From: a virus
Taxonomy: Duplodnaviria > Heunggongvirae > Uroviricota > Caudoviricetes
Length of the DNA: 10,994 nucleotides
Reading direction: 5' to 3' (one strand)
Virus record (IMG/VR): IMGVR_UViG_3300021963_008171
Span: 1-10,994 of that record
Below are positions 311-10,994 of this stretch, one piece after another. How positions within the stretch are numbered: position 1 is the stretch's first letter; each line of letters starts with the position of its first letter. The notes below the pieces were generated by a model. It saw only the letters and a program-made list of their open reading frames with translations, did no database searches and was not told the DNA's origin. A program made the translations under genes and the position numbers.

Positions 311-934
311 TCATTCTTCAAAAACAAGGGTAACATAAATATCTTTCCCTGTTGAAATTGAACTAACCGAAAAATAATGCCAGAGTGGATTGATTAAATT
401 CCTATAATGAGGAGGAGAATCAATCCACTTTTTTATGATCATTCTTACAAGAGCAGTATACGTTGCCCTGTCAGATTCCCACATAAAATTAAAATCTGGA
501 TATTTGGATTTTAAATACTCGTAATTTTCTTTGTAAAGATTAATGGGTACCGGAGTTGTTTCGAGAAGTAAATTCTCACCAAAGTGTCCTCCACCTATAA
601 CTAATCTTATTCTTTGCGTGAAATTGAGGGAATCCCTTTCGTGAGAGAATTTACCGGTCTTTACCATGTATCTTGTTTGATCCCTAGCTACACTGTCGCA
701 TCTCTCAGAATCCTTTAATTTATTAAGCCCGTTTGATTTCCTGAATCTGTTCAGATCCATTCTAATAATCTCGTCCAGTTTTTCACAATCAATCACCCAT
801 CCCAATTTATCATCATAAATTATTCTATCTGCCATTAGGCTAGCCGCCCTGTCAAGATCTGCGCCAATAATTAATACCTGGGAGTTTGATCTAATGGATA
901 TTAAACAAAAGAGAATTAATATAAGTCTTTGCAT
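311..934 (-). CDS. CAP (SCP/YkwD-like) domain protein with N-terminal signal peptide
   Basis: CAP motifs: N-x-FR-x3-GL, M-x5-FSH, GEN, W-x2-SP-x-H-x2-N-L, terminal YVTLVF. The His/Glu/His triad is present. The likely start is ATG 934 (MQRLILILFCLISIRSNS-Q, a signal-peptide-like stretch) rather than 979. Confidence 0.85.
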   Translation of the reverse strand: MQRLILILFCLISIRSNSQVLIIGADLDRAASLMADRIIYDDKLGWVIDCEKLDEIIRMDLNRFRKSNGLNKLKDSERCDSVARDQTRYMVKTGKFSHERDSLNFTQRIRLVIGGGHFGENLLLETTPVPINLYKENYEYLKSKYPDFNFMWESDRATYTALVRMIIKKWIDSPPHYRNLINPLWHYFSVSSISTGKDIYVTLVFEE

Positions 935-939
935 AGATA

Positions 940-967
940 CAAATATAGAAAGATCTGCCGAAACAAA
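940..967 (-). promoter_or_regulatory. Possible Bacteroidota sigma70-type promoter for the CAP gene
   Basis: The minus strand has TATATTTG (947-940), matching the -7 consensus TAnnTTTG, 5 nt before ATG 934. TTTG at 967-964 lies 16 nt upstream, somewhat shorter than the usual spacing. Confidence 0.35.
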
Positions 968-1009
968 AAAATGTAACATTTGTACAATATTTGAGTACTT
1001 TTAATATAG

Positions 1010-1783
1010 ATGCCTAAAAATAAAAAAATATTTGTTTGTGGGGATAGCTGGATGAGTTCCAGCCCAGAAACCCCAGGTCTACATTTTTCTGAAATAGTTT
1101 CAGAATCATTGGGATGTGACCTTTACAATATCGCTAGGGGTGGAATGAGTAACGGAGGTATTTGTTCTCAGATAGAATTTGCTATGAAATTCCATCCAGA
1201 TCTGATAATTTACAATTCAACATTTCCTGATAGAATAGAATTTCCAACAAAAGATAATTCAGGGGTTCATTTGGACGCATCACACGTGGCATACCAGTAT
1301 AAAAATTCAACAAGCTCTGGATTAGAATTCATAAATAAAGATGTGAGAATGATATCAGATACCCTTTCGGGGCTAGGTTCGTGGTTTACCCCGGATTTTA
1401 TAGAGGGCCTTTACGGTGAATTTTGTCCAGACGTTGTAGAAAAACAAAAAGCAATCAAGAGCTATATAGAACATTTGTACTGTCATCAATGGAAGTCACA
1501 GACTGATAGGCTGATGTTATATTCGATGACCCATAAGATGATAGCATCCCGGATCAATTTTATTTTTATGTGCGATTCACTGGGTGCTATAGATGAAATG
1601 AAATGGCTGGAAAATAGGAATATTGGATATTCGTACGATCTTCTTTTAAGAACAAGGGATCTTCATATAGAAAGGGAATTTGGGCATGGAAATTTCAAAG
1701 ATCCAGGGTATCACACAACCGCGGAAACCCAGAAAGAAATTGCAGAATATACCCTTGAAAAAATTAGGATTTTGGGGATTTAA
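1010..1783 (+). CDS. SGNH/GDSL-like hydrolase or acyltransferase-fold protein (divergent)
   Basis: N-terminal IFVCGDSW (block I nucleophile Ser), ARGGMSN (block II Gly) and C-terminal DPGYH (variant of D-x-x-H). Confidence 0.6.
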   Translation: MPKNKKIFVCGDSWMSSSPETPGLHFSEIVSESLGCDLYNIARGGMSNGGICSQIEFAMKFHPDLIIYNSTFPDRIEFPTKDNSGVHLDASHVAYQYKNSTSSGLEFINKDVRMISDTLSGLGSWFTPDFIEGLYGEFCPDVVEKQKAIKSYIEHLYCHQWKSQTDRLMLYSMTHKMIASRINFIFMCDSLGAIDEMKWLENRNIGYSYDLLLRTRDLHIEREFGHGNFKDPGYHTTAETQKEIAEYTLEKIRILGI

Positions 1784-1807: not shown

Positions 1808-2779
1808 ATGAAGATTCTAATTACAGGAGGGGCTGGGTATTTAGGCTCCGTTATTACCGGAAAAATGTTAAATGCTGGACATGAGGTTGTTGTTTTGGAT
1901 AAATTAATATTCAATCAAACATCTTTATTGGTTTACACTCCAAACCCTAATTTTAAATTCATTCATGGTGATGTTAGAAACGAATCATTATTAGAAAAAC
2001 TTTGCAATGAGGCCGATGCAATTATCCCTTTAGCTGCGGTCGTTGGATTTCCTGCATGTGATGCTGAACCTGAATTGGCTGAGGAAATTAACTATAAACA
2101 AATATTTAATATTTTTAGATTTACCACGGGGAAAGGTAAAAAAATATTATATCCCAATACTAATAGCGGATATGGTATTGGTGTTGGCCAAACAGAATGT
2201 ACAGAAGAATCTCCATTAAATCCCATATCGATTTACGGTAAAACAAAATGTAATGCTGAAGATTTATTAAAATCAGGCACTGATGCTATCATCTTTAGAT
2301 TAGCAACTGTATTCGGTGTATCGCCAAGAATGAGAACAGATTTATTAGTTAATGATTTCACATACAAAGCAATTACAGACAAATACATTGTGGTTTTTGA
2401 GAAAAACTTTAAAAGAAATTTCATTCACATTCAAGATGTTGCAAATGTTTTCTTGTTTATGTTAGAAAATTATGATCAATATAAAGGTGAGATCTTTAAT
2501 GTTGGTTTGACCACAGCAAATTTAAGTAAGCAAGAATTACTTGAAAAAATACAGGATCACGTTAAGAATTTTGCTGTGTCATATAACGATTATTATGAGG
2601 ATCCTGACAAAAGAGATTATATTGTATCAAATGCAAAAATTGAATCAACAGGCTGGTCTCCGGAGTGGGATATAGATAGAGGAATAAAGGAATTAATAAT
2701 GGGTTATCAAATGATAGTACCTAAGATGGGAGCAGAGTTTAGAAACGGATTCCCTTTAGGATATGCAAATAATATGTAA
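1808..2779 (+). CDS. NAD(P)-dependent epimerase/dehydratase/reductase (extended SDR, nucleotide-sugar type)
   Basis: ILITGGAGYLG Rossmann motif, GDVR, LAAVVG, catalytic YGKTK (YxxxK), RLATVFG, RNFIHIQD, FNVG; 323 aa. Confidence 0.93.
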   Translation: MKILITGGAGYLGSVITGKMLNAGHEVVVLDKLIFNQTSLLVYTPNPNFKFIHGDVRNESLLEKLCNEADAIIPLAAVVGFPACDAEPELAEEINYKQIFNIFRFTTGKGKKILYPNTNSGYGIGVGQTECTEESPLNPISIYGKTKCNAEDLLKSGTDAIIFRLATVFGVSPRMRTDLLVNDFTYKAITDKYIVVFEKNFKRNFIHIQDVANVFLFMLENYDQYKGEIFNVGLTTANLSKQELLEKIQDHVKNFAVSYNDYYEDPDKRDYIVSNAKIESTGWSPEWDIDRGIKELIMGYQMIVPKMGAEFRNGFPLGYANNM

Positions 2780-2781
2780 TC

Positions 2782-3327
2782 ATGAGTAACAAATGGGATG
2801 AATTTATAGAAGTACCTTCTAAAGTATTCGGTTACGATGTACCAGTATTTACACCTTCTATCTATAGGGAATATAGAGGAGAGATATTCACGACTTTCCA
2901 TACAGAAGAACATCCGGTAATGCGACATATACATTACGAAAAAAACGAAATAAGTATACACGGAAGATTCTCTAAATCATACAAGGGAGTTCTAAGAGGG
3001 CTTCACTACGACAACAAAACATGGAAACTTGTTCAAGCAGCAGTCGGTGACATCTATCTTGTTGTTTTGGATATGAGAAAAAATTCACCAACCTTTGGTG
3101 ATTGGGAATCCTATATCATTTCAGAAAAAAACAGACAGCAAGTGTTAGTCCCACCGGGATTTGCGAATGGCCATTATGCTTTAACTGATTGTATGTTCCA
3201 TTACAATCTATTCTATAAAGATGGATATGTTGATGCTGATGAGCAGGGGGTAGTCAAATGGAACGACCCTGAATATCAAATGGAATGGCCAACTGATAAA
3301 CCAATATTACAAAAAAGAGATCGATGA
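2782..3327 (+). CDS. rmlC: dTDP-4-dehydrorhamnose 3,5-epimerase-like (RmlC/RfbC cupin family), variant
   Basis: RG-x-F, GVLRGLH (His75), KLV (Lys82), DMRKNSPTFG-x-W, VPPGFANG, Tyr141, WNDP, WP and closing KRD motifs. Confidence 0.88.
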   Translation: MSNKWDEFIEVPSKVFGYDVPVFTPSIYREYRGEIFTTFHTEEHPVMRHIHYEKNEISIHGRFSKSYKGVLRGLHYDNKTWKLVQAAVGDIYLVVLDMRKNSPTFGDWESYIISEKNRQQVLVPPGFANGHYALTDCMFHYNLFYKDGYVDADEQGVVKWNDPEYQMEWPTDKPILQKRDR

Positions 3328-3956
3328 TAAAAAATTTAGAAAAATATCCAATTGTCAACGATGGGATTTACACCAAAGAAGAACTATCGAAATTTGAAAG
3401 ATTGATCGCAGATCACTGGGAAGCAGGAAGAATCAAAGGACCTGTTCATCTCAGTGGCGGAAACGAAGATCAATTAATAGAGATAGGGAAAAGAATTAAA
3501 CCAACAGATTGGGTTTTTTCCACGTGGAGATCCCACTATCATGCTTTAATTAAAGGCGTATGTCCAGTTTGGTTAGAAGAAGAAATTGTTGCTGGTAGAT
3601 CAATCACAATAGTAAGCCAAGAAGAAAGATTTTATGCTTCAGCCATAGTTGGAGCAATAATTCCCATAGCAACCGGTGTTGCTCTTTCTAATAAAAGGGA
3701 AAGAAGAAACGATAAGGTTTGGTGTTTTATTGGTGACATGGCTTTTGAAACTGGGGGATTCTATGAGATGCACAAGTATGCTAAAAATCTAGATCTTCCA
3801 ATCGTATTTGTTGTAGAAGACAATCACGTTTCAACTAACACGCCTACAATAGAAACTTGGGGAGGAATTAAAAGAGAAATTCCAGATAATGTTATCTGGT
3901 ATGAATACGAAAAAGAATGGCCACATTACGGAACCGGTAAATGGGTGGTTTTTTAA
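3324..3956 (+). CDS. ThDP-dependent E1-alpha-like subunit (pyruvate/acetoin dehydrogenase alpha family), short form
   Basis: HLSGG-x-E, DWVFSTWRSHYHAL, ThDP/Mg motif GDMAFETG...LPIVFVVEDN (3732-3824) and C-terminal WPHYGTG. Overlaps the rmlC stop as ATGA (3324-3327). Confidence 0.88.
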   Translation: MIKNLEKYPIVNDGIYTKEELSKFERLIADHWEAGRIKGPVHLSGGNEDQLIEIGKRIKPTDWVFSTWRSHYHALIKGVCPVWLEEEIVAGRSITIVSQEERFYASAIVGAIIPIATGVALSNKRERRNDKVWCFIGDMAFETGGFYEMHKYAKNLDLPIVFVVEDNHVSTNTPTIETWGGIKREIPDNVIWYEYEKEWPHYGTGKWVVF

Positions 3957-3973
3957 TTTAATAAAATAAGAAT

Positions 3974-4522
3974 ATGAGTCAACCTGAATATACACCTTAC
4001 AAAGATGCTCTAACAAATTCGATGACGTTTCTCGGAGAGCAATCAGATACTGTTTTCATCGGACAACAACTTCTGTGGCACGGAAACCCTATGAGTACCA
4101 CAATCGGTAATGTTTCTAAAGATAAAATGATTGAGGTACCAGTGATGGAGGAATCCCAAATGGGAATGTCTCTAGGAATGGCAATGGCAGGAGATTTTGT
4201 TATTACATTTTATCCACGTTGGGATTTTTTAATCTGTGCAACAAATCAGCTGGTTAATCATGTTGACAAGATCACTTTAATGAGCAATGGAAAATGGAGT
4301 CCAAATATGATAGTTCGATTAGGTAAAGGATCTGATAAACCATTGGATCCGGGACATCAGCACAGAGGAAATTATATTGATGAATTTAAATCGATGTGTC
4401 CCAATATTAATTTCTGGGATTTGAAAAATCATGCGGATATTGAAACTACCTATAAGTCAGCCTACGAAAAAGGAGGTATCCACGTTATAGTAGAATACCC
4501 CGAATTGTATTATATAAATTAA
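3974..4522 (+). CDS. ThDP-dependent E1-beta-like subunit, pyrimidine-binding domain only
   Basis: VFIGQ, VPVMEESQMGMSLGMAMAG (ThDP-activating Glu), DFLICATNQLVN, GHQH, ending at VIVEYPELY. The transketolase C-terminal domain is absent (182 aa). Confidence 0.85.
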   Translation: MSQPEYTPYKDALTNSMTFLGEQSDTVFIGQQLLWHGNPMSTTIGNVSKDKMIEVPVMEESQMGMSLGMAMAGDFVITFYPRWDFLICATNQLVNHVDKITLMSNGKWSPNMIVRLGKGSDKPLDPGHQHRGNYIDEFKSMCPNINFWDLKNHADIETTYKSAYEKGGIHVIVEYPELYYIN

Positions 4523-4524
4523 AA

Positions 4525-4926
4525 TTACCAGCTAATCTCCCAATCACTGAAATCCGCGGCTAAGCAATCTATTTTATAATCCTTTCTTCCACCAACTATT
4601 TCTTGAATCTTGTTCTTTGCAGTATTTCTTATCCCGTTTAATCCATGGGTAAGTTCTAAGTTATTCCCGTCCTTTATTCCCTTTCTGTAATTAGATTCAT
4701 TATGCCAAATATGGAGATTCATTTGGGAAAGAACCACAATAGCTCTGATTGTTTCAGCATTAACTTTTTCACTGGAATCAAGTAGCACTTGAATATCATG
4801 AACTATATCTTTTATCTCTTGTGAATATTCCTCCTTGTGCTGTGGTATAAAAACCTCCTTCAATTGAGAAATGCTTAATCTGTCAACCAATTCTGCTAAT
4901 GTGGGTAAATATTTTCTTTCTGCCAT
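4525..4926 (-). CDS. Helical hypothetical protein resembling the DUF4254/DUF6165 families
   Basis: AELVDRLSI-x2-LK, N-x2-IWH-x-E-x3-R and N-x2-R-x3-K-x2-I patterns. A-rich, SD-less upstream region. The family call is from memory of the motif only. Confidence 0.7.
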   Translation of the reverse strand: MAERKYLPTLAELVDRLSISQLKEVFIPQHKEEYSQEIKDIVHDIQVLLDSSEKVNAETIRAIVVLSQMNLHIWHNESNYRKGIKDGNNLELTHGLNGIRNTAKNKIQEIVGGRKDYKIDCLAADFSDWEISW

Positions 4927-7320: not shown

Positions 7321-9018
7321 ATGTACATACTTGGTATATCAGCTTATTACCACGACTCCGCTGCGTGTTTATTCAGAAATGGAACCTTATTGGGTGCAGC
7401 AGAAGAGGAGAGATTTACAGGAATAAAGGGTGATAAATCATTCCCCAAGAAAACCATAGATTGGCTTTTGAAATCAAATGGCATTTCTATATCTGATGTT
7501 TCCACTGTTTGCTGGTACGAAAATCCAGATCTAAAAAGGAGTAGGGTATTAAAAACGTTCAGAAAAAAACCAATCAGAAACTTTAGAAGGATAATCAAAT
7601 ATTTTTTATGGGACAGTTTTCCAAAGCTATGGAAGATATTGAACGAAGAGATAGGATTTTACGGAAAAATACATATAGTAGATCACCACCTTTCCCACGC
7701 ATCTCTTGCTTATTTCACCTCCTATTTTGAGGAATGTAACATAGTTACTGTTGACGGGGTAGGTGAACATGAAACTATAACAATTTCTAAAGCAGAAAAA
7801 AATAAAATAACCAAAATTGCTTCTATAAACTATCCGCATTCTTTGGGCTTGTTCTATTCAGCTTTCACAGCATATCTAGGATTTAAACCAAACGAGGGTG
7901 AATACAAGCTTATGGGTCTTGCAGCATACGGAGATCCCTCGATATACTCCGAAAAAATAAAAAAGACAATCTCTTTTAGCAACGGGGATCTGAATGTGGA
8001 TATGTCATATTTCACATGGGACTATTCAGACAAGATAATGTTCAACGAGAACCTGTGTCATTTATTAGATCTTCCTCCTAGAATGGATGGGGAATCATTA
8101 AATGATGAATACAAGCACGTAGCTGCTTCTGTTCAGAAAATATATGAAGAAATATTGTTTGAGATATTAAATCACAGCTACGAGCTTAATATGAGTGAAA
8201 ATTTGTGTTTAGGCGGGGGATGTGCCTATAACGGAGTAGCAAATGCTGGAATTCAAAAAAATACGCCATATAAAAAAATATGGATACCTCTATCTCCGTC
8301 CGATAGCGGATCTGCTATAGGTGCTTGTCTTCACTATATCAACGTGAAGAAGGGACAAAAAAAGAAGGGAGCATTTGAGCCATACCAGGGACCCTCATTT
8401 AATATAACCGAAATGAGATCCTCAATAATTAAATATGACGACAGGATTGAATGGGAACATATGGAGACTGGCCCATTGATCAAGAAAACAGCAGAACTCC
8501 TGAACACCGGAAATGTCTTTGGGTGGTTTCAGGGAAAGATGGAATTTGGAGCTAGAGCTCTTGGTAATAGATCAATATTGGCATCCCCTATATTCCCAGG
8601 AATGCAGGATAGAATAAACCTAGTGATAAAGAAGAGGGAGCTTTTTAGACCCTTTGCACCATCGGTTTCCTTCGATAAAGCCAGCACGTATTTCGAGATA
8701 GATTCTCCAGTTCCATATATGAATATGGTGGTTAAAGTGAAACCAGGATGGAATCTACCTGCTATAACGCATGTAGACGGCACTGCAAGGGTACAAACCG
8801 TAACATCGTTTGAAAATCCAAGATATCATAGACTATTGAAAGAAATGGAGGAATTATCAGGTTATCCAATACTATTAAATACATCTTTTAATTTTAAGGA
8901 TCAAACGATTACATTATACCCAGAAGATGCTATTATAAGATTTTTAGATTCAGAAATGGATTATTTAGTTTTAGGTAATTTTTTCATCTCAAAAAAGAAT
9001 ACCAATGATAGGTGTTAA
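7321..9018 (+). CDS. O-carbamoyltransferase, NodU/CmcH/TobZ family
   Basis: ILGISAYYHDSAA, AAEEERF, DHHLSHA (metal ligands), DGVGE, SLGLFYS, GEYKLMGLAAYG, GGCAYN, DSGSAIGA, GKMEFGARALGNRSILA, KRELFRPFAPSV, THVDGTARVQTV, LLNTSFN. Both the Kae1-like and YrdC-like domains are present. Confidence 0.96.
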   Translation: MYILGISAYYHDSAACLFRNGTLLGAAEEERFTGIKGDKSFPKKTIDWLLKSNGISISDVSTVCWYENPDLKRSRVLKTFRKKPIRNFRRIIKYFLWDSFPKLWKILNEEIGFYGKIHIVDHHLSHASLAYFTSYFEECNIVTVDGVGEHETITISKAEKNKITKIASINYPHSLGLFYSAFTAYLGFKPNEGEYKLMGLAAYGDPSIYSEKIKKTISFSNGDLNVDMSYFTWDYSDKIMFNENLCHLLDLPPRMDGESLNDEYKHVAASVQKIYEEILFEILNHSYELNMSENLCLGGGCAYNGVANAGIQKNTPYKKIWIPLSPSDSGSAIGACLHYINVKKGQKKKGAFEPYQGPSFNITEMRSSIIKYDDRIEWEHMETGPLIKKTAELLNTGNVFGWFQGKMEFGARALGNRSILASPIFPGMQDRINLVIKKRELFRPFAPSVSFDKASTYFEIDSPVPYMNMVVKVKPGWNLPAITHVDGTARVQTVTSFENPRYHRLLKEMEELSGYPILLNTSFNFKDQTITLYPEDAIIRFLDSEMDYLVLGNFFISKKNTNDRC

Positions 9019-9460
9019 TATATTTTCAGCTTCCGAGATAGCAACGAGCGATTACTCAAAAGAGCAGTTACCCAAATGGGAACTTGATATTGTGGATTAC
9101 AGAAAACTCTGCGACATAGGAAAGTCCGGGGTTGAGATTTTTGATCTAGGGCACTCTAGAATATCTCCAGAATTTCTAATTGCAAAAATATACAGGACAG
9201 GAACCAAAGTCACATCAAAACTTAGAACAAGAATGAATAATGGGGATTTGATAGAATTCGAAAGGAGTGAAATAATGTCAAATTTAGAATACGACTCATT
9301 ACAGGGAATAATACCAAGAACAACAATCAGGATCAATAACGAATCTGTAATTACAGAAAAATATAAGGAAATTCAAAAAGTACATGATTTTGATTCCCTT
9401 AGAGAATTCTATTCTAATGATTGGATTTCTTCTAAAAACCTAGAAACATTCCCTCAATAA
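9005..9460 (+). CDS. Hypothetical protein
   Basis: 151-aa ORF on the coding strand, overlapping the carbamoyltransferase stop by 14 nt and filling the gap to rpsU. No recognisable motif. Confidence 0.75.
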   Translation: MIGVNIFSASEIATSDYSKEQLPKWELDIVDYRKLCDIGKSGVEIFDLGHSRISPEFLIAKIYRTGTKVTSKLRTRMNNGDLIEFERSEIMSNLEYDSLQGIIPRTTIRINNESVITEKYKEIQKVHDFDSLREFYSNDWISSKNLETFPQ

Positions 9461-9461
9461 A

Positions 9462-9471
9462 TAAATATATA
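9462..9471 (+). promoter_or_regulatory. Variant of the candidate late-promoter motif (TAAATATATA) upstream of rpsU
   Basis: 4 nt before ATG 9476, the same spacing as the 7084 copy. Shares the ATATATA core. Confidence 0.35.
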
Positions 9472-9475
9472 AGTT

Positions 9476-9670
9476 ATGATAATTGTAGACGCAACGAAAT
9501 ACGGATCGATCGAACAGGCACTAAAGGTTTATAAAAACAAGGTTAATAAGACTAAAATGATTAACCAACTGAGAGAAAGACAAACTTACACCAAGCCGTC
9601 GGTAGTTAGAAGAAAGGAGGTACTTGATGCAATATACAAGCAACAAGTCATTAATTCCTTGGGAGATTAG
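9476..9670 (+). CDS. rpsU: Ribosomal protein bS21, phage-encoded, Bacteroidota-type
   Basis: 64 aa: SIEQALK-x-YK-x-KV-x-K...LRERQ-x-Y-x-KPSV-x-RR...A-x-Y54-x-Q. Stand-alone, with no other ribosomal genes nearby. Confidence 0.92.
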   Translation: MIIVDATKYGSIEQALKVYKNKVNKTKMINQLRERQTYTKPSVVRRKEVLDAIYKQQVINSLGD

Positions 9671-9695
9671 GTATTTAAACCAACACCCTAAATAT

Positions 9696-9974
9696 ATGAG
9701 TAACACCACTAAGGAAAAATGTGTTATGTGCGGGCAAGAAACCCAATATAACATATCGGACAACATTAATTTAAGATATGGATACATCGAAGGAATGGGA
9801 CAGCTTTGCTCTCCGTGCTACCAGGGGTCCTCAAGAAAGTCTTTTTTAGTGGACCACAGAACTGTTTTAGATACTCCCAATGATATGGAGCTAGGAGTTA
9901 AGATAAGAAAAGCGTATCATGATTCATTAGATTCCGCCCCACCAATGAAATGGGAATCCATCGGGAGAGTGTAA
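9696..9974 (+). CDS. Small zinc-finger-like phage protein (CxxC-x25-CxxC)
   Basis: KCVMCG-x-ET-x-Y...R-x-GYIEG-x-GQLCSPCY. The start is set at ATG 9696 because 9624 lies inside rpsU. Confidence 0.8.
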   Translation: MSNTTKEKCVMCGQETQYNISDNINLRYGYIEGMGQLCSPCYQGSSRKSFLVDHRTVLDTPNDMELGVKIRKAYHDSLDSAPPMKWESIGRV

Positions 9975-9979
9975 ACAAA

Positions 9980-10994
9980 ATGCCAAGAAAAATATCAGAC
10001 CAGTCTCTTAGATTTTTAAAAAGGTCAGTCTCCGGATCCTGGGAGATTGATGAAAATAATTCCATCATAATAGAGGGGGACCTGGACTGTGCAAGAGGCC
10101 TCTGGCCAGATCAGAAAGAACTCCCCAGATTAAACATTGAAAGGGTCTCTGGAAATTTTGATTGCTCTAACAATGCTTTAACCTCGCTGAGAAATGTGCC
10201 AAAGCATGTTGGAGGATCTTTTAGATGCTCGGGAAATAAGCTTACCTCATTAATAGGATCCCCAATAACAGTCGGATTAAATTTCGATTGCATGTACAAC
10301 CGAATCAAAACCCTAGAGGGATGTCCAGCTAAAATACCCGGAAGCTTTATAGCAGATTTTAATGAATTAGAATCACTCGAGTATGGCCCTGATATAGTTC
10401 TTGGTGATTATAGGATTTCCACAAATAAAATAACATCTCTTGTCGGATCCCCAAAAAGCATCAGTGGTTCTTTTCAATGCGAAAATAATATGCTAACCTC
10501 ACTTGTTGATGGACCTTCAGAAGTTGGAGGATTTTATAATTGCTCCGAAAATAGTCTATCGTCATTAAGCGGATCACCAAGTCACATCAAAGGTAGATTT
10601 ATATGTTCAAATAATTTATTGGAAACCCTGGAATTTGGTCCTAAGATAGTTGATGGCGATTATCTTTGTCATTCAAATAGGTTAAAGAATTTATTTGGAT
10701 CCCCCGAAAAAATGGGATCGGCTTTAAATTGCTCATCAAATTTGATAACCTCACTAGAAGGATTGCCCATAATGAATCCCGAGAATTTAGTTATATCATC
10801 TAATAAAATATCAGAGAAGACATTAATGATGTTAGCTAAAGATGTAGCTTTCGGAATACCATTTAGTGTGTCACTTGCATTATCATGGGATATGATAGAT
10901 TACAGGGATCAAGAAAATTTAAGTTGTTTTTTAGATTTTTTGAAAGTGTCTGATTATATTTTTGACAATTTTTCTAATGATCCAGTCGAGACCA
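9980..10994 (+). CDS. Leucine-rich repeat protein (21-aa repeats), 3'-truncated by the window edge
   Basis: Open frame from ATG 9980 to the window end (338 codons; MPRKISDQSLRFLKRSVSGSWEIDENNSIIIEGDLDC...). Not in the ORF track. Confidence 0.9.
   Translation, partial: MPRKISDQSLRFLKRSVSGSWEIDENNSIIIEGDLDCARGLWPDQKELPRLNIERVSGNFDCSNNALTSLRNVPKHVGGSFRCSGNKLTSLIGSPITVGLNFDCMYNRIKTLEGCPAKIPGSFIADFNELESLEYGPDIVLGDYRISTNKITSLVGSPKSISGSFQCENNMLTSLVDGPSEVGGFYNCSENSLSSLSGSPSHIKGRFICSNNLLETLEFGPKIVDGDYLCHSNRLKNLFGSPEKMGSALNCSSNLITSLEGLPIMNPENLVISSNKISEKTLMMLAKDVAFGIPFSVSLALSWDMIDYRDQENLSCFLDFLKVSDYIFDNFSNDPVET
10145..10774 (+). repeat. Ten tandem 63-bp (21-aa) LRR units, consensus V-x-G-x-F-x-C-x-x-N-x-L-T-S-L-x-G-x-P-x-x
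   Basis: Units start at 10145, 10208, 10271, 10334, 10397, 10460, 10523, 10586, 10649 and 10712. Examples: VSGNFDCSNNALTSLRNVPKH, VGGSFRCSGNKLTSLIGSPIT, ISGSFQCENNMLTSLVDGPSE. Confidence 0.92.

What the first reader, a model, noticed from the sequence alone, without database searches (positions are those of the whole stretch)
1808..4522. Phage operon that looks like a branched-chain sugar pathway (SDR + RmlC-like + ThDP alpha/beta carboligase)
Seen: four co-oriented, tightly spaced genes (gaps of 2, -4 and 17 nt) put an E1-alpha/E1-beta pair directly behind two nucleotide-sugar enzymes, with no E2, E3 or lipoyl gene in the window. Established: ThDP enzymes add a pyruvate-derived two-carbon branch to NDP-4-keto-6-deoxysugars (YerE for yersiniose; PDH alpha/beta-like pairs AviB1/AviB2 in avilamycin and AlmDI/AlmDII in aldgamycin). 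Inference: this phage makes a C2-branched, yersiniose/eurekanate-like sugar (epimerise, add acetyl, reduce) for decorating the virion, its DNA or the host surface, rather than supplementing pyruvate dehydrogenase. I know of no characterised viral pathway of this kind. The nucleotidyltransferase, 4,6-dehydratase and glycosyltransferase are not in this window.
Basis: partly seen in the sequence, partly recalled or inferred. Interest (0 to 1): 0.8.

Follow-up and report, generated by a model that had tools for sequence, protein, structure and literature searches.

The report
Phage mini thiamine enzyme, heptose cassette
A giant uncultured phage carries a four-gene cassette (sugar C4-oxidase, epimerase and a stripped-down two-part thiamine enzyme) that most likely turns a host GDP-heptose into a carbon-branched sugar; no such pathway has been described for a virus, and this enzyme family has not been studied.

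Summary
Four co-oriented genes lie at 1808-4522 with gaps of 2, -4 and 17 nt, and all are under strong purifying selection.

The E1-like pair is not a dehydrogenase E1:
- Alpha (210 aa) keeps only the diphosphate-binding domain and beta (182 aa) only the pyrimidine-binding domain.
- The lipoyl-transfer and E2-docking parts are missing.
- Two complete relatives have no E2 or lipoyl gene.
- All short forms make one clan, far from 49 full-length E1 alphas.

- The SDR is 56% identical to PDB 6VO6. From memory this is Cj1427, the C. jejuni GDP-heptose C4-dehydrogenase.
- The cupin is closest to the C. jejuni GDP-4-keto-heptose 3/3,5-epimerases.
- So the order is oxidise, epimerise, then branch. No nucleotidyltransferase or 4,6-dehydratase is needed, and complete relatives have none.

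The linkage is conserved in 61 viral contigs. In 28 cellular genomes the pair sits next to heptose kinase and nucleotidyltransferase genes. Cyanophages S-SM2 and P-TIM68 carry a fused form.

The carboligation itself is inferred, not shown. This scan has reached the same reading of this enzyme family on other DNA at least eight times.

The parts
1808..2779 (+). Extended SDR, Cj1427-like nucleotide-sugar C4-dehydrogenase. Proposed to oxidise C4 of a host GDP-heptose or GDP-mannose to the 4-keto sugar.
   Evidence: Pfam Epimerase 2e-34. PDB 6VO6/6VO8 E 1e-102, about 56% identity over residues 2-310, with GxxGxxG, NTNSGYG and YGxxK conserved. Orthologues at 41-54% identity lie beside the short alpha/beta pair in 13 of 28 cellular loci.
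2782..3327 (+). RmlC-fold cupin, GDP-4-keto-heptose C3 or C3/C5 epimerase-like.
   Evidence: Pfam dTDP_sugar_isom 2e-34. It scores below the NCBIfam rmlC cut-off (117 vs 156 bits). Best PDB hits are MlghB/DdahB (7ANG, 7AN4, 7ANI) and Cj1430-type heptose epimerases at 5e-37, against 1e-25 for true RmlC. The RGLH His, the KLV Lys and the Tyr residues are conserved in the alignment.
3324..3956 (+). Short E1-alpha-like subunit: ThDP diphosphate-binding (PP) domain only.
   Evidence: E1_dh positions 7-170 of 300. The family profile hits human PDH E1 alpha at 7e-26, BCKDH at 1e-14, split transketolase at 7e-9 and DXS at 2e-7. There are 5421 homologues of about 210 aa. No C-terminal extension occurs in any of 89 short forms, against 125-170 extra residues in nearly all of the 49 complete long forms.
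3732..3824 (+). ThDP-Mg binding motif G137-D138-(X28)-N167 of alpha (GDM...EDN).
   Evidence: G137 and N167 are invariant, and D138 and E165 are at least 90% conserved, in 45 diverse homologues. The motif aligns to GDG...ENN of human PDH E1 alpha.
3974..4522 (+). Short E1-beta-like subunit: pyrimidine-binding (Pyr) domain only, with no Transketolase_C (E2-docking) domain.
   Evidence: Transket_pyr 1e-7 covers residues 9-174 of 182. PDB E1 beta hits cover only chain residues about 6-176. E59 (4148-4150) and H130 are invariant in 68 short forms and aligned with Glu and His of long-form betas.
4525..4926 (-). 133-aa protein of unknown function, convergent with beta. It is a conserved neighbour of beta; membership in the system is uncertain.
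   Evidence: 64-97% identical copies lie next to beta in many viral loci. Weak DUF7783 hit, 2.6e-4. Only viral hypothetical clusters in the Atlas.
1010..1783 (+). 257-aa protein 24 nt upstream of the SDR on the same strand. The N-terminal 'GDSW' looks like SGNH/GDSL block I. Membership is uncertain.
   Evidence: Sequence. No Pfam or PHROG hit. Viral-only clusters in the Atlas. Not conserved next to the cassette in relatives.
7321..9018 (+). NodU/CmcH-type carbamoyltransferase, a recurrent neighbour of the cassette. Possible O-carbamoylation of the glycan (inference).
   Evidence: Carbam_trans_N/C 4e-60 and 2e-62. Homologues at 42-86% identity lie within 10 kb of alpha in many related loci.

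Best explanation
The cassette is a phage copy of a nucleotide-heptose tailoring pathway whose last enzyme is a minimal, two-subunit ThDP carboligase.

Proposed steps:
1. [quoted passage not shown]
2. The cupin epimerises C3 and/or C5.
3. The alpha/beta ThDP enzyme decarboxylates a 2-oxo acid, pyruvate by analogy. Its PP domain comes from alpha and its Pyr domain with the activating Glu59 from beta.
4. The ThDP enzyme adds the resulting acyl carbanion to the C4 ketone. The product is a 4-C-acyl branched GDP-sugar with a tertiary alcohol.
5. Glycosyltransferase-like genes elsewhere in the genome then use this sugar. The two GDP-fucose-synthase-like SDRs, the 2OG oxygenase and the carbamoyltransferase may tailor it further.

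What is shown: gene identities, domain truncation, conserved catalytic motifs, conserved linkage, a separate clade, and the absence of E2 and lipoyl genes and of sugar-activation genes.

What is inferred: the substrate, the position of attack, the donor and the fate of the product.
For: - Alpha and beta keep the ThDP motif, the E1-type HL..G.E and R.H motifs, and the Pyr-domain Glu and His.
- Both lack the parts needed for lipoyl transfer and E2 docking.
- No E2, lipoyl domain, GHMP kinase, NTP_transferase or SIS gene is found in the contig or in two complete relatives.
- The SDR hits 6VO6 at 1e-102, and the epimerase is closest to GDP-4-keto-heptose epimerases. The window's cassette has no C4-reductase, so the 4-keto sugar is left for the ThDP enzyme.
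- Among 61 viral loci, the SDR is present in 45, the epimerase in 55 and beta in 51.
- In 26 of 28 cellular loci alpha and beta are adjacent. HddA-like GHMP kinase occurs in 16 of 28, NTP_transferase in 12 of 28 and DegT in 10 of 28. In full-length E1 loci the figures are 1, 4 and 5 of 52.
- Cyanophages S-SM2 and P-TIM68 carry alpha-beta fused (402 aa) inside a GmhA/kinase/nucleotidyltransferase cluster.
- All 44 short forms make one clan with SH-aLRT 99.
- There is precedent. E1-like alphaKADH2 pairs add a pyruvate-derived C2 branch to keto sugars, and the branch is then reduced or transaminated (PMC12247030, PMC4425429). YerE/YerF do the same (PMC9306805).
Against: - No biochemical data exist for any short-form member.
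- I could not obtain named alphaKADH2 sequences (AviB1, Pau11, AlmDI, KbDH). The short forms do not nest among the candidate long-form sugar-linked pairs (L108, L116, L131) in the tree.
- The reading of 6VO6 as Cj1427 rests on my memory. The PDB title says only 'putative sugar-nucleotide epimerase/dehydratase'.
- Relatives place two GDP-4-keto-reductase-like SDRs between alpha and beta. An unbranched Cj1427/Cj1430/Cj1428-type product is therefore also possible, with the ThDP step on a side branch.
- No C-branched heptose turned up in the papers I searched.
Confidence: 0.58

Rival explanations
1. The enzyme and pathway are the same, but the ThDP chemistry differs. It could be transketolase-like transfer of a hydroxyacetyl unit, or a longer, functionalised 2-oxo acid donor (ErwE/MyGE style, or 2-oxoglutarate). 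It could also be addition to an aldehyde, which would extend the chain rather than branch at C4.
For: Beta is a Transket_pyr domain, and split transketolase and DXS appear among the profile hits. A split transketolase is proposed for hydroxyacetyl branching in miharamycin (PMC12247030). ErwE and MyGE use C4-C8 donors (PMC9306805). The missing alpha C-terminus may widen the active site (inference).
Against: The profile prefers PDH E1 alpha by 17 orders of magnitude over transketolase, and E1-type motifs are retained. All known E1-type branching enzymes use pyruvate (PMC12247030). The SDR and epimerase point to a C4 ketone as acceptor.
Confidence: 0.2
2. The ThDP pair acts before sugar activation. 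It would be a DXS- or transketolase-like synthase that supplies or builds an unusual heptulose or deoxy-ketose phosphate for the heptose pathway.
For: In cells and cyanophages the pair sits beside early-pathway genes: GHMP kinase, nucleotidyltransferase and GmhA.
Against: Complete phage relatives keep the pair with the C4-oxidase and epimerase but have no kinase, isomerase or nucleotidyltransferase to activate a new sugar phosphate. The tightest partner is the 4-keto-forming SDR.
Confidence: 0.08
3. It is an auxiliary E1 that feeds the host pyruvate, acetoin or branched-chain dehydrogenase complex.
For: Source annotations call homologues 'pyruvate dehydrogenase E1 alpha'. The closest solved structures are PDH E1.
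Against: Beta lacks the Transketolase_C domain, and alpha ends about 150 residues early. No E2 or lipoyl genes are present. The short forms are a distinct clan on a long branch. The neighbours are sugar genes, not E2/E3.
Confidence: 0.02
4. The three sugar genes make an ordinary unbranched epimerised heptose with reductases encoded elsewhere. The ThDP pair would have an unrelated or merely accessory role, such as disposing of or supplying a keto acid for the ping-pong SDR.
For: Cj1427-type enzymes need 2-oxoglutarate as oxidant (PMC10680097). The genome holds GDP-fucose-synthase/Cj1428-like reductases.
Against: C. jejuni runs that pathway without any ThDP enzyme (PMC10680097). Co-occurrence, overlap of the reading frames (-4 nt) and the fused or embedded arrangements argue for a step in the same pathway. 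No known E1 chemistry regenerates 2-oxoglutarate.
Confidence: 0.07

Closest known systems
alphaKADH2-type two-subunit ThDP sugar-branching enzymes (AviB1/AviB2, Pau11/Pau12, AlmDI/DII, KbDH-alpha/beta)
   Same: Both are E1 alpha/beta-like ThDP enzymes without E2/E3. Both are encoded among keto-sugar genes. In the known enzymes the branch is later reduced or transaminated. Here SDRs, an aldo-keto reductase and DegT are frequent neighbours in cells (PMC12247030, PMC4425429).
   Different: The known enzymes are full length (Pau11 325 aa, Pau12 345 aa), come from actinomycete antibiotic clusters and act on dTDP-deoxyhexose-derived sugars. This pair is 210 + 182 aa, falls in a separate clan, sits in a GDP-heptose context, and occurs in phages, candidate-phyla bacteria, SAR11, Verrucomicrobiota and small archaea.
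Campylobacter jejuni capsular heptose modification pathway (Cj1427/MlghA, Cj1430/MlghB/DdahB, Cj1428/MlghC)
   Same: The first two enzymes match. The SDR is 56% identical to 6VO6, and the cupin is closest to the heptose epimerases. Reductase-like SDRs lie elsewhere in the genome.
   Different: The C. jejuni pathway ends with C4 reduction and contains no ThDP enzyme (PMC10680097, PMC7949155). Here the ThDP pair stands where the reductase would be.
YerE/YerF (yersiniose A), ErwE, MyGE
   Same: The proposed logic is the same: a ThDP-dependent acyl addition to a nucleotide-4-keto sugar followed by tailoring (PMC9306805).
   Different: YerE is a single-chain enzyme of the decarboxylase (acetolactate-synthase-like) ThDP superfamily and acts on CDP-3,6-dideoxy-4-keto-glucose. 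This pair is E1/transketolase-type and split into two chains.
Cyanophage S-SM2 SSM2_198 and P-TIM68 'transketolase central region-containing protein'
   Same: Homologous at 41-43% identity to alpha and 30-31% to beta. Also viral and also in a heptose or nucleotide-sugar cluster.
   Different: Alpha and beta are fused in one 402-aa chain. A Zn-alcohol-dehydrogenase lies upstream instead of the Cj1427-like SDR. Those phages also encode GmhA, a kinase and nucleotidyltransferases. The function has never been assigned.
Pyruvate/branched-chain 2-oxoacid dehydrogenase E1 alpha2beta2
   Same: The fold family, the ThDP motif and the active-site His, Arg and Glu motifs are shared.
   Different: This pair lacks the alpha C-terminal half and the beta C-terminal domain. 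There are no E2/E3 partners.

Membership tests
2-oxoacid dehydrogenase complex E1 (PDH/BCKDH/acetoin) | ThDP-Mg motif GDG-X(25-30)-N and the Pyr-domain activating Glu | tested here: met
   G137-D138...N167 in alpha. E59 is invariant in beta.
2-oxoacid dehydrogenase complex E1 (PDH/BCKDH/acetoin) | Full-length alpha (about 320-400 aa) including the C-terminal region used for reductive acylation of lipoyl-E2 | tested here: not met
   Alpha is 210 aa. It aligns to human E1 alpha residues 44-216 only. Short forms have 0-3 residues beyond the window alpha's end, against 125-170 in nearly all long forms.
2-oxoacid dehydrogenase complex E1 (PDH/BCKDH/acetoin) | Beta with a C-terminal Transketolase_C domain that docks E2 | tested here: not met
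   Beta is 182 aa, with Transket_pyr only.
2-oxoacid dehydrogenase complex E1 (PDH/BCKDH/acetoin) | E2 (lipoyl + acyltransferase) encoded with it | tested here: not met
   PF00198 and PF00364 are absent from G000-G004, two of them complete. None is in the window.
2-oxoacid dehydrogenase complex E1 (PDH/BCKDH/acetoin) | Falls within the clades of true E1 alpha | tested here: not met
   The 44 short forms are separated from 49 long forms by a branch of 1.37 + 0.69 with SH-aLRT 99.
alphaKADH2 sugar C-branching enzymes (AviB/Pau11-12/AlmD/KbDH) | Two-subunit E1-like ThDP enzyme encoded within a keto-sugar pathway, without E2/E3 | tested here: met
alphaKADH2 sugar C-branching enzymes (AviB/Pau11-12/AlmD/KbDH) | Full-length subunits (Pau11 325 aa, Pau12 345 aa) | tested here: not met
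   210 and 182 aa, against the lengths given in PMC4425429.
alphaKADH2 sugar C-branching enzymes (AviB/Pau11-12/AlmD/KbDH) | Groups phylogenetically with the named enzymes | not tested
   The named sequences could not be fetched. Candidate long-form sugar-linked pairs (L108, L116, L131) lie on the long-form side of the tree.
alphaKADH2 sugar C-branching enzymes (AviB/Pau11-12/AlmD/KbDH) | Pyruvate-dependent acetyl addition to a keto sugar | not testable with these tools
   Needs an enzyme assay.
Cj1427-type GDP-heptose C4-dehydrogenase | Close full-length similarity with the SDR catalytic motifs | tested here: met
   E 1e-102 and about 56% identity to 6VO6. GGAGYxGS, NTNSGYG and YGxxK are conserved. 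That 6VO6 is Cj1427 is my own knowledge.
Cj1427-type GDP-heptose C4-dehydrogenase | Tightly bound NADH recycled by 2-oxoglutarate; GDP-D-glycero-D-manno-heptose as substrate | not testable with these tools
   The context supports a GDP-heptose: HddA-like kinase and nucleotidyltransferase lie beside cellular orthologues.
GDP-4-keto-heptose C3/C5 epimerases (MlghB/DdahB/Cj1430) | RmlC fold with catalytic His and Tyr; closer to the heptose epimerases than to RmlC | tested here: met
   5e-37 against 1e-25, with motifs conserved. It scores below the NCBIfam rmlC cut-off. Whether it is a C3-only or a C3/C5 epimerase cannot be told.
YerE-type branching enzymes | Single chain with TPP_enzyme_N/M/C domains (decarboxylase superfamily) | tested here: not met
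   The best Pfam hits are E1_dh and Transket_pyr. TPP_enzyme_C gives only a weak partial hit.
Split transketolase | Transketolase N-terminal chain plus a Pyr + Transketolase_C chain | tested here: not met
   The profile hits E1 alpha at 7e-26 and split transketolase 6YAK at 7e-9. There is no Transketolase_C domain.

The most novel reading that the evidence does not exclude
Giant phages divert a host GDP-heptose into a C4-acyl-branched heptose, a sugar type I found described in no paper searched. They do this with a minimal ThDP carboligase family shared with SAR11, candidate-phyla bacteria and small archaea. The Cj1427-like SDR may close its own redox cycle by reducing the new side-chain ketone with its bound NADH, which would make the three-enzyme cassette redox-neutral. 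The product would decorate virion fibres or the surface of the infected cell.
Probability: 0.35. Interest if true: 0.8.

Novelty: new variant of a known kind. Interest (0 to 1): 0.7.

Why it matters
If the reading is right, ThDP-dependent sugar C-branching would extend beyond actinomycete antibiotics and a few LPS sugars. It would reach a very abundant aquatic gene family: 5421 close homologues, 61 viral contigs, and many bacterial and archaeal phyla. It would also reach viruses.

The reading predicts a new class of branched heptose. It points to the smallest E1-type carboligase so far (about 390 residues for the catalytic pair), which is of interest for biocatalysis of tertiary alcohols. It would also correct a widespread mis-annotation as 'pyruvate dehydrogenase E1 alpha' or 'transketolase central region protein', which could otherwise be read as a central-carbon auxiliary metabolic gene in viromes.

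Tried and rejected
- Megablast of the window against 50,697 phage records found nothing.
- The 45-sequence alignment was too diverse for the genome scan. A 9-sequence alignment worked.
- Three neighbourhood look-ups of 50%-cluster representatives landed on contigs too short to help.
- I could not confirm from held papers that 6VO6 is Cj1427. PMC7509852 and PMC7500870 are not held, and a text search for the PDB codes gave only noise.
- I asked whether the 572-aa protein that follows alpha in relatives is a degenerate beta. It is not: BLASTP gave E 0.24. It is a member of a roughly 400-aa paralogous module.
- I asked whether that module resembles a Pfam-GT10 protein from a Pelagibacter locus. 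There was no significant similarity and no Pfam hit.
- The promoter and terminator scan showed nothing above the shuffled controls.
- The Atlas look-ups for the 133-aa and 257-aa neighbours gave only viral hypothetical clusters.
- I ran no complex prediction. The natural alpha-beta fusion and the homology to E1 heterotetramers already make the pairing near certain.


Full report
OBSERVATION. The window is the first 10,994 bases of a 74,994-base IMG/VR virus record, which CheckV rates 22% complete. Four + strand ORFs lie at 1808-2779 (323 aa), 2782-3327 (181 aa), 3324-3956 (210 aa) and 3974-4522 (182 aa). Pfam assigns them to Epimerase/GDP_Man_Dehyd, dTDP_sugar_isom, E1_dh and Transket_pyr. No ORF of the window hits an E2, E3 or lipoyl family. 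All four genes are under strong purifying selection, with dN/dS 0.03-0.08 against orthologues that have dS 0.7-1.6.

THE THIAMINE PAIR: ANATOMY.
- Alpha matches only positions 7-170 of the 300-position E1_dh model. It aligns to residues 44-216 of the 365-residue human PDH E1 alpha.
- Beta matches only the pyrimidine-binding domain and has no Transketolase_C domain.
- Among 45 diverse homologues, H42, G118, G137, L158 and N167 are invariant. D138, E165, R69, H71 and H201 are at least 90% conserved.
- These residues form the GD(M)-X-N ThDP-Mg motif and the E1-type 'HL..G.E' and 'R.H' motifs. They align with CHLCDGQE, YRAHG and GDG...ENN of human E1 alpha.
- In beta, E59 and H130 are invariant in 68 short forms. 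They align with the Glu and His of full-length betas. From general knowledge of the fold, this Glu is the one that activates ThDP.
- The catalytic core is therefore intact. What is missing is the alpha C-terminal half and the beta C-terminal domain. From my knowledge of E1 enzymes, these parts carry the His and loops for reductive acylation of lipoamide and the E2 docking site.

THE THIAMINE PAIR: A DISCRETE FAMILY.
- The family profile prefers PDH E1 alpha (7e-26) over BCKDH (1e-14), split transketolase (7e-9) and DXS (2e-7).
- The short form is a conserved family, not a fragment. One search found 5421 homologues of about 210 aa. One search found 115 clusters at 50% identity with E below 1e-30.
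- Across 89 short-form loci, alpha ends within 0-3 residues of the window protein's end. Nearly all of the 49 complete long forms carry 125-170 extra residues.
- In a tree of 93 alphas, all 44 short forms (viral, cyanophage-fused and cellular) make one clan. A long branch with SH-aLRT 99 separates them from all 49 full-length forms.
- The window's viral clade is sister to Pelagibacteraceae short forms.
- No E2 catalytic domain or lipoyl domain is present in the contig or in four relatives of 217-336 kb. Two of those are CheckV-100% complete, and all four carry a large terminase.

THE TWO SUGAR ENZYMES.
- The SDR hits PDB 6VO6/6VO8 at E 1e-102. Identity is about 56% over the whole length. The next hit is at 1e-24. 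The NAD-binding glycines, the NTNSGYG motif and the YGxxK motif are conserved.
- The PDB title is only 'putative sugar-nucleotide epimerase/dehydratase'. From my own knowledge these entries are Cj1427 of Campylobacter jejuni (Huddleston et al. 2020, cited in PMC10680097 and PMC7949155). I could not confirm the code with a tool.
[quoted passage not shown] It uses 2-oxoglutarate to re-oxidise a tightly bound NADH (PMC10680097).
- The cupin's best solved relatives are MlghB and DdahB (7ANG, 7AN4, 7ANI; identities confirmed in PMC7949155). The entries titled GDP-D-glycero-4-keto-D-lyxo-heptose 3- or 3,5-epimerase also score about 5e-37. True RmlC scores 1e-25. The cupin is below the NCBIfam rmlC cut-off.
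- So the pair is an oxidase plus an epimerase that together make and scramble a GDP-4-keto-heptose. In C. jejuni a C4-reductase follows. Here the thiamine pair follows, and its start overlaps the epimerase gene by 4 nt.

CONSERVATION OF THE LINKAGE IN VIRUSES.
- The scan returned 61 IMG/VR loci with alpha at 53-98% identity.
- An SDR orthologue is present in 45, the epimerase in 55 and beta on the same strand in 51.
- Beta is adjacent to alpha in only 10 loci, which include the window's closest relatives. In 33 loci beta lies 4.4-7.6 kb downstream.
- The intervening genes are one or two copies of a roughly 400-aa module without a Pfam match, two SDRs, a 2OG-Fe(II) oxygenase and a 274-aa protein.
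- In the window's own genome the same gene set lies at 53.9-59.9 kb. It holds an 831-aa double module, a 555-aa SDR-2OG fusion, a 324-aa SDR and a 310-aa protein, followed by the same radical-SAM gene.
- Both of those SDRs are closest to GDP-fucose synthase and to the C. jejuni heptose C4-reductases. This again points to GDP-linked 4-keto sugars.
- In L053 and L056 beta is fused to the 400-aa module in one 580-aa protein.

CONSERVATION OF THE LINKAGE IN CELLS.
- One scan of 185,579 species genomes gave 28 loci with short alphas at 41-58% identity. After these, identity drops sharply to 35% or less in full-length E1.
- The carriers are Patescibacteria, Pelagibacteraceae, Verrucomicrobiota, Omnitrophota, Nitrospirales, Massilia, a Burkholderiaceae MAG, Desulfosudaceae, Actinomycetota, Dehalococcoidales and Woesearchaeota.
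- Beta is adjacent to alpha in 26 of 28 loci. A Cj1427-like SDR lies within the locus in 13.
- Pfam scans of five loci found a GHMP kinase (HddA-like) next to the pair in every one. They also found NTP_transferase (once fused to a HAD phosphatase), further SDRs, an aldo-keto reductase, DegT aminotransferase, GT2 and GT10 glycosyltransferases and a B12-radical SAM enzyme.
- Homology counts in short-form loci are GHMP kinase 16 of 28, NTP_transferase 12 of 28 and DegT 10 of 28. In full-length E1 loci they are 1, 4 and 5 of 52.
- The cyanophages S-SM2 and P-TIM68 encode alpha-beta as one 402-aa protein. It is annotated 'transketolase central region-containing protein'. It lies between a Zn-alcohol dehydrogenase and a carbohydrate kinase, nucleotidyltransferases and phosphoheptose isomerase.

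WHAT THE PHAGE LACKS. Neither the contig nor the complete relatives encode NTP_transferase, a GHMP kinase or a SIS-type isomerase. The phage must therefore start from a host nucleotide sugar. This argues that the thiamine enzyme works at the nucleotide-sugar level, after C4 oxidation.

MECHANISM.
- Shown: the identities and the context described above.
- Inferred: the SDR makes a GDP-4-keto-heptose, the cupin epimerises C3 and/or C5, and the alpha/beta enzyme decarboxylates a 2-oxo acid and adds the acyl carbanion to the C4 ketone.
- The precedents are the E1-like alphaKADH2 pairs of aldgamycin, kibdelomycin, paulomycin and avilamycin. These add a pyruvate-derived C2 unit to keto sugars, and the branch is afterwards reduced or transaminated (PMC12247030; PMC4425429). 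YerE/YerF is a further precedent (PMC9306805).
- The frequent DegT, SDR and aldo-keto reductase neighbours in cells fit such tailoring of a new side-chain ketone.
- One untested idea: the Cj1427-like SDR could re-oxidise its bound NADH on that ketone, which would make the cassette redox-neutral.

RIVALS. Other ThDP chemistry on the same sugar (hydroxyacetyl transfer, longer donors, chain extension) cannot be excluded, and I put it at about 0.2. A role before sugar activation is unlikely given what the phages lack (0.08). A true dehydrogenase E1 is essentially excluded (0.02). A pathway ending in an ordinary unbranched heptose, with the ThDP pair accessory, remains possible (0.07).

NOVELTY. 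I found no paper that links a ThDP enzyme to a heptose pathway or to a phage sugar pathway. The 2025 review lists viruses as unexplored. The kind of reaction is known. The minimal architecture, the GDP-heptose context and the viral setting are new, so I class this as a new variant of a known kind.

EARLIER NOTES OF THIS SCAN. At least eight earlier notes, on other genomes, reached the same reading of this family. I read them after my own analysis, and they agree with it. Earlier notes on this genome describe it as a fragment of a giant phage with a glycan island next to fibre genes. I did not re-test the host or the fibre claims.

Noticed in passing
L012-L072 (viral loci); G000 53,940-59,977: In 33 of 61 related viral contigs, alpha and beta are split by a 4.4-7.6 kb block of sugar genes (400-aa modules, two SDRs, a 2OG oxygenase and a 274-aa protein). 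In this genome the same block lies about 50 kb away, and alpha and beta are adjacent.
   Followed up: yes
L053:8001-10400 and L056 (IMG/VR contigs): Beta is fused to a roughly 400-aa module of unknown family in one 580-aa protein. The same module occurs in several paralogous copies per locus and twice in the 831-aa ORF of this genome. My BLAST and Pfam checks neither confirm nor refute that.
   Followed up: partly
G000 56,432-58,099 (L010:9432-11099): A 555-aa fusion of a GDP-fucose-synthase-like SDR with a 2OG-Fe(II) oxygenase domain. In relatives these are two separate genes.
   Followed up: partly
window 4525-4926 (-): A 133-aa protein that is convergent with beta, the two stop codons 2 nt apart. 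It is conserved beside beta at 64-97% identity in many viral loci. It has only a weak DUF7783 hit and viral hypothetical clusters.
   Followed up: partly
window 1010-1783 (+): A 257-aa protein with an N-terminal 'VCGDSW' motif that recalls SGNH/GDSL hydrolases. It lies 24 nt upstream of the SDR. It matches no profile and is not conserved at this position in relatives.
   Followed up: partly
window 7321-9018 (+): A NodU/CmcH-type carbamoyltransferase that recurs within 10 kb of the cassette in related contigs. It may carbamoylate the glycan.
   Followed up: no
window 9476-9670 (+): Bacterial-type ribosomal protein bS21 gene (Pfam 2e-13), conserved in close relatives at 80-86% identity.
   Followed up: no
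window 311-979 (-): CAP / cysteine-rich secretory protein family domain protein (Pfam 2e-9), unusual in a phage. It is conserved at 72-76% identity in close relatives.
   Followed up: no
L131 (Omnitrophota MAG), also L108, L116, L118: Full-length E1 alpha/beta pairs (332-338 + 342-379 aa) sit beside sugar genes. In L131 these include a 50%-identical Cj1427-like SDR and a GHMP kinase. They are candidate cellular long-form branching enzymes that bridge the short family and the actinomycete enzymes.
   Followed up: partly
L006 (S-SM2) 7969-10191; L007 (P-TIM68) 7970-10194: In both cyanophages a Zn-dependent alcohol dehydrogenase gene lies directly upstream of the fused alpha-beta gene. It may be the keto-forming partner there instead of the SDR.
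   Followed up: no
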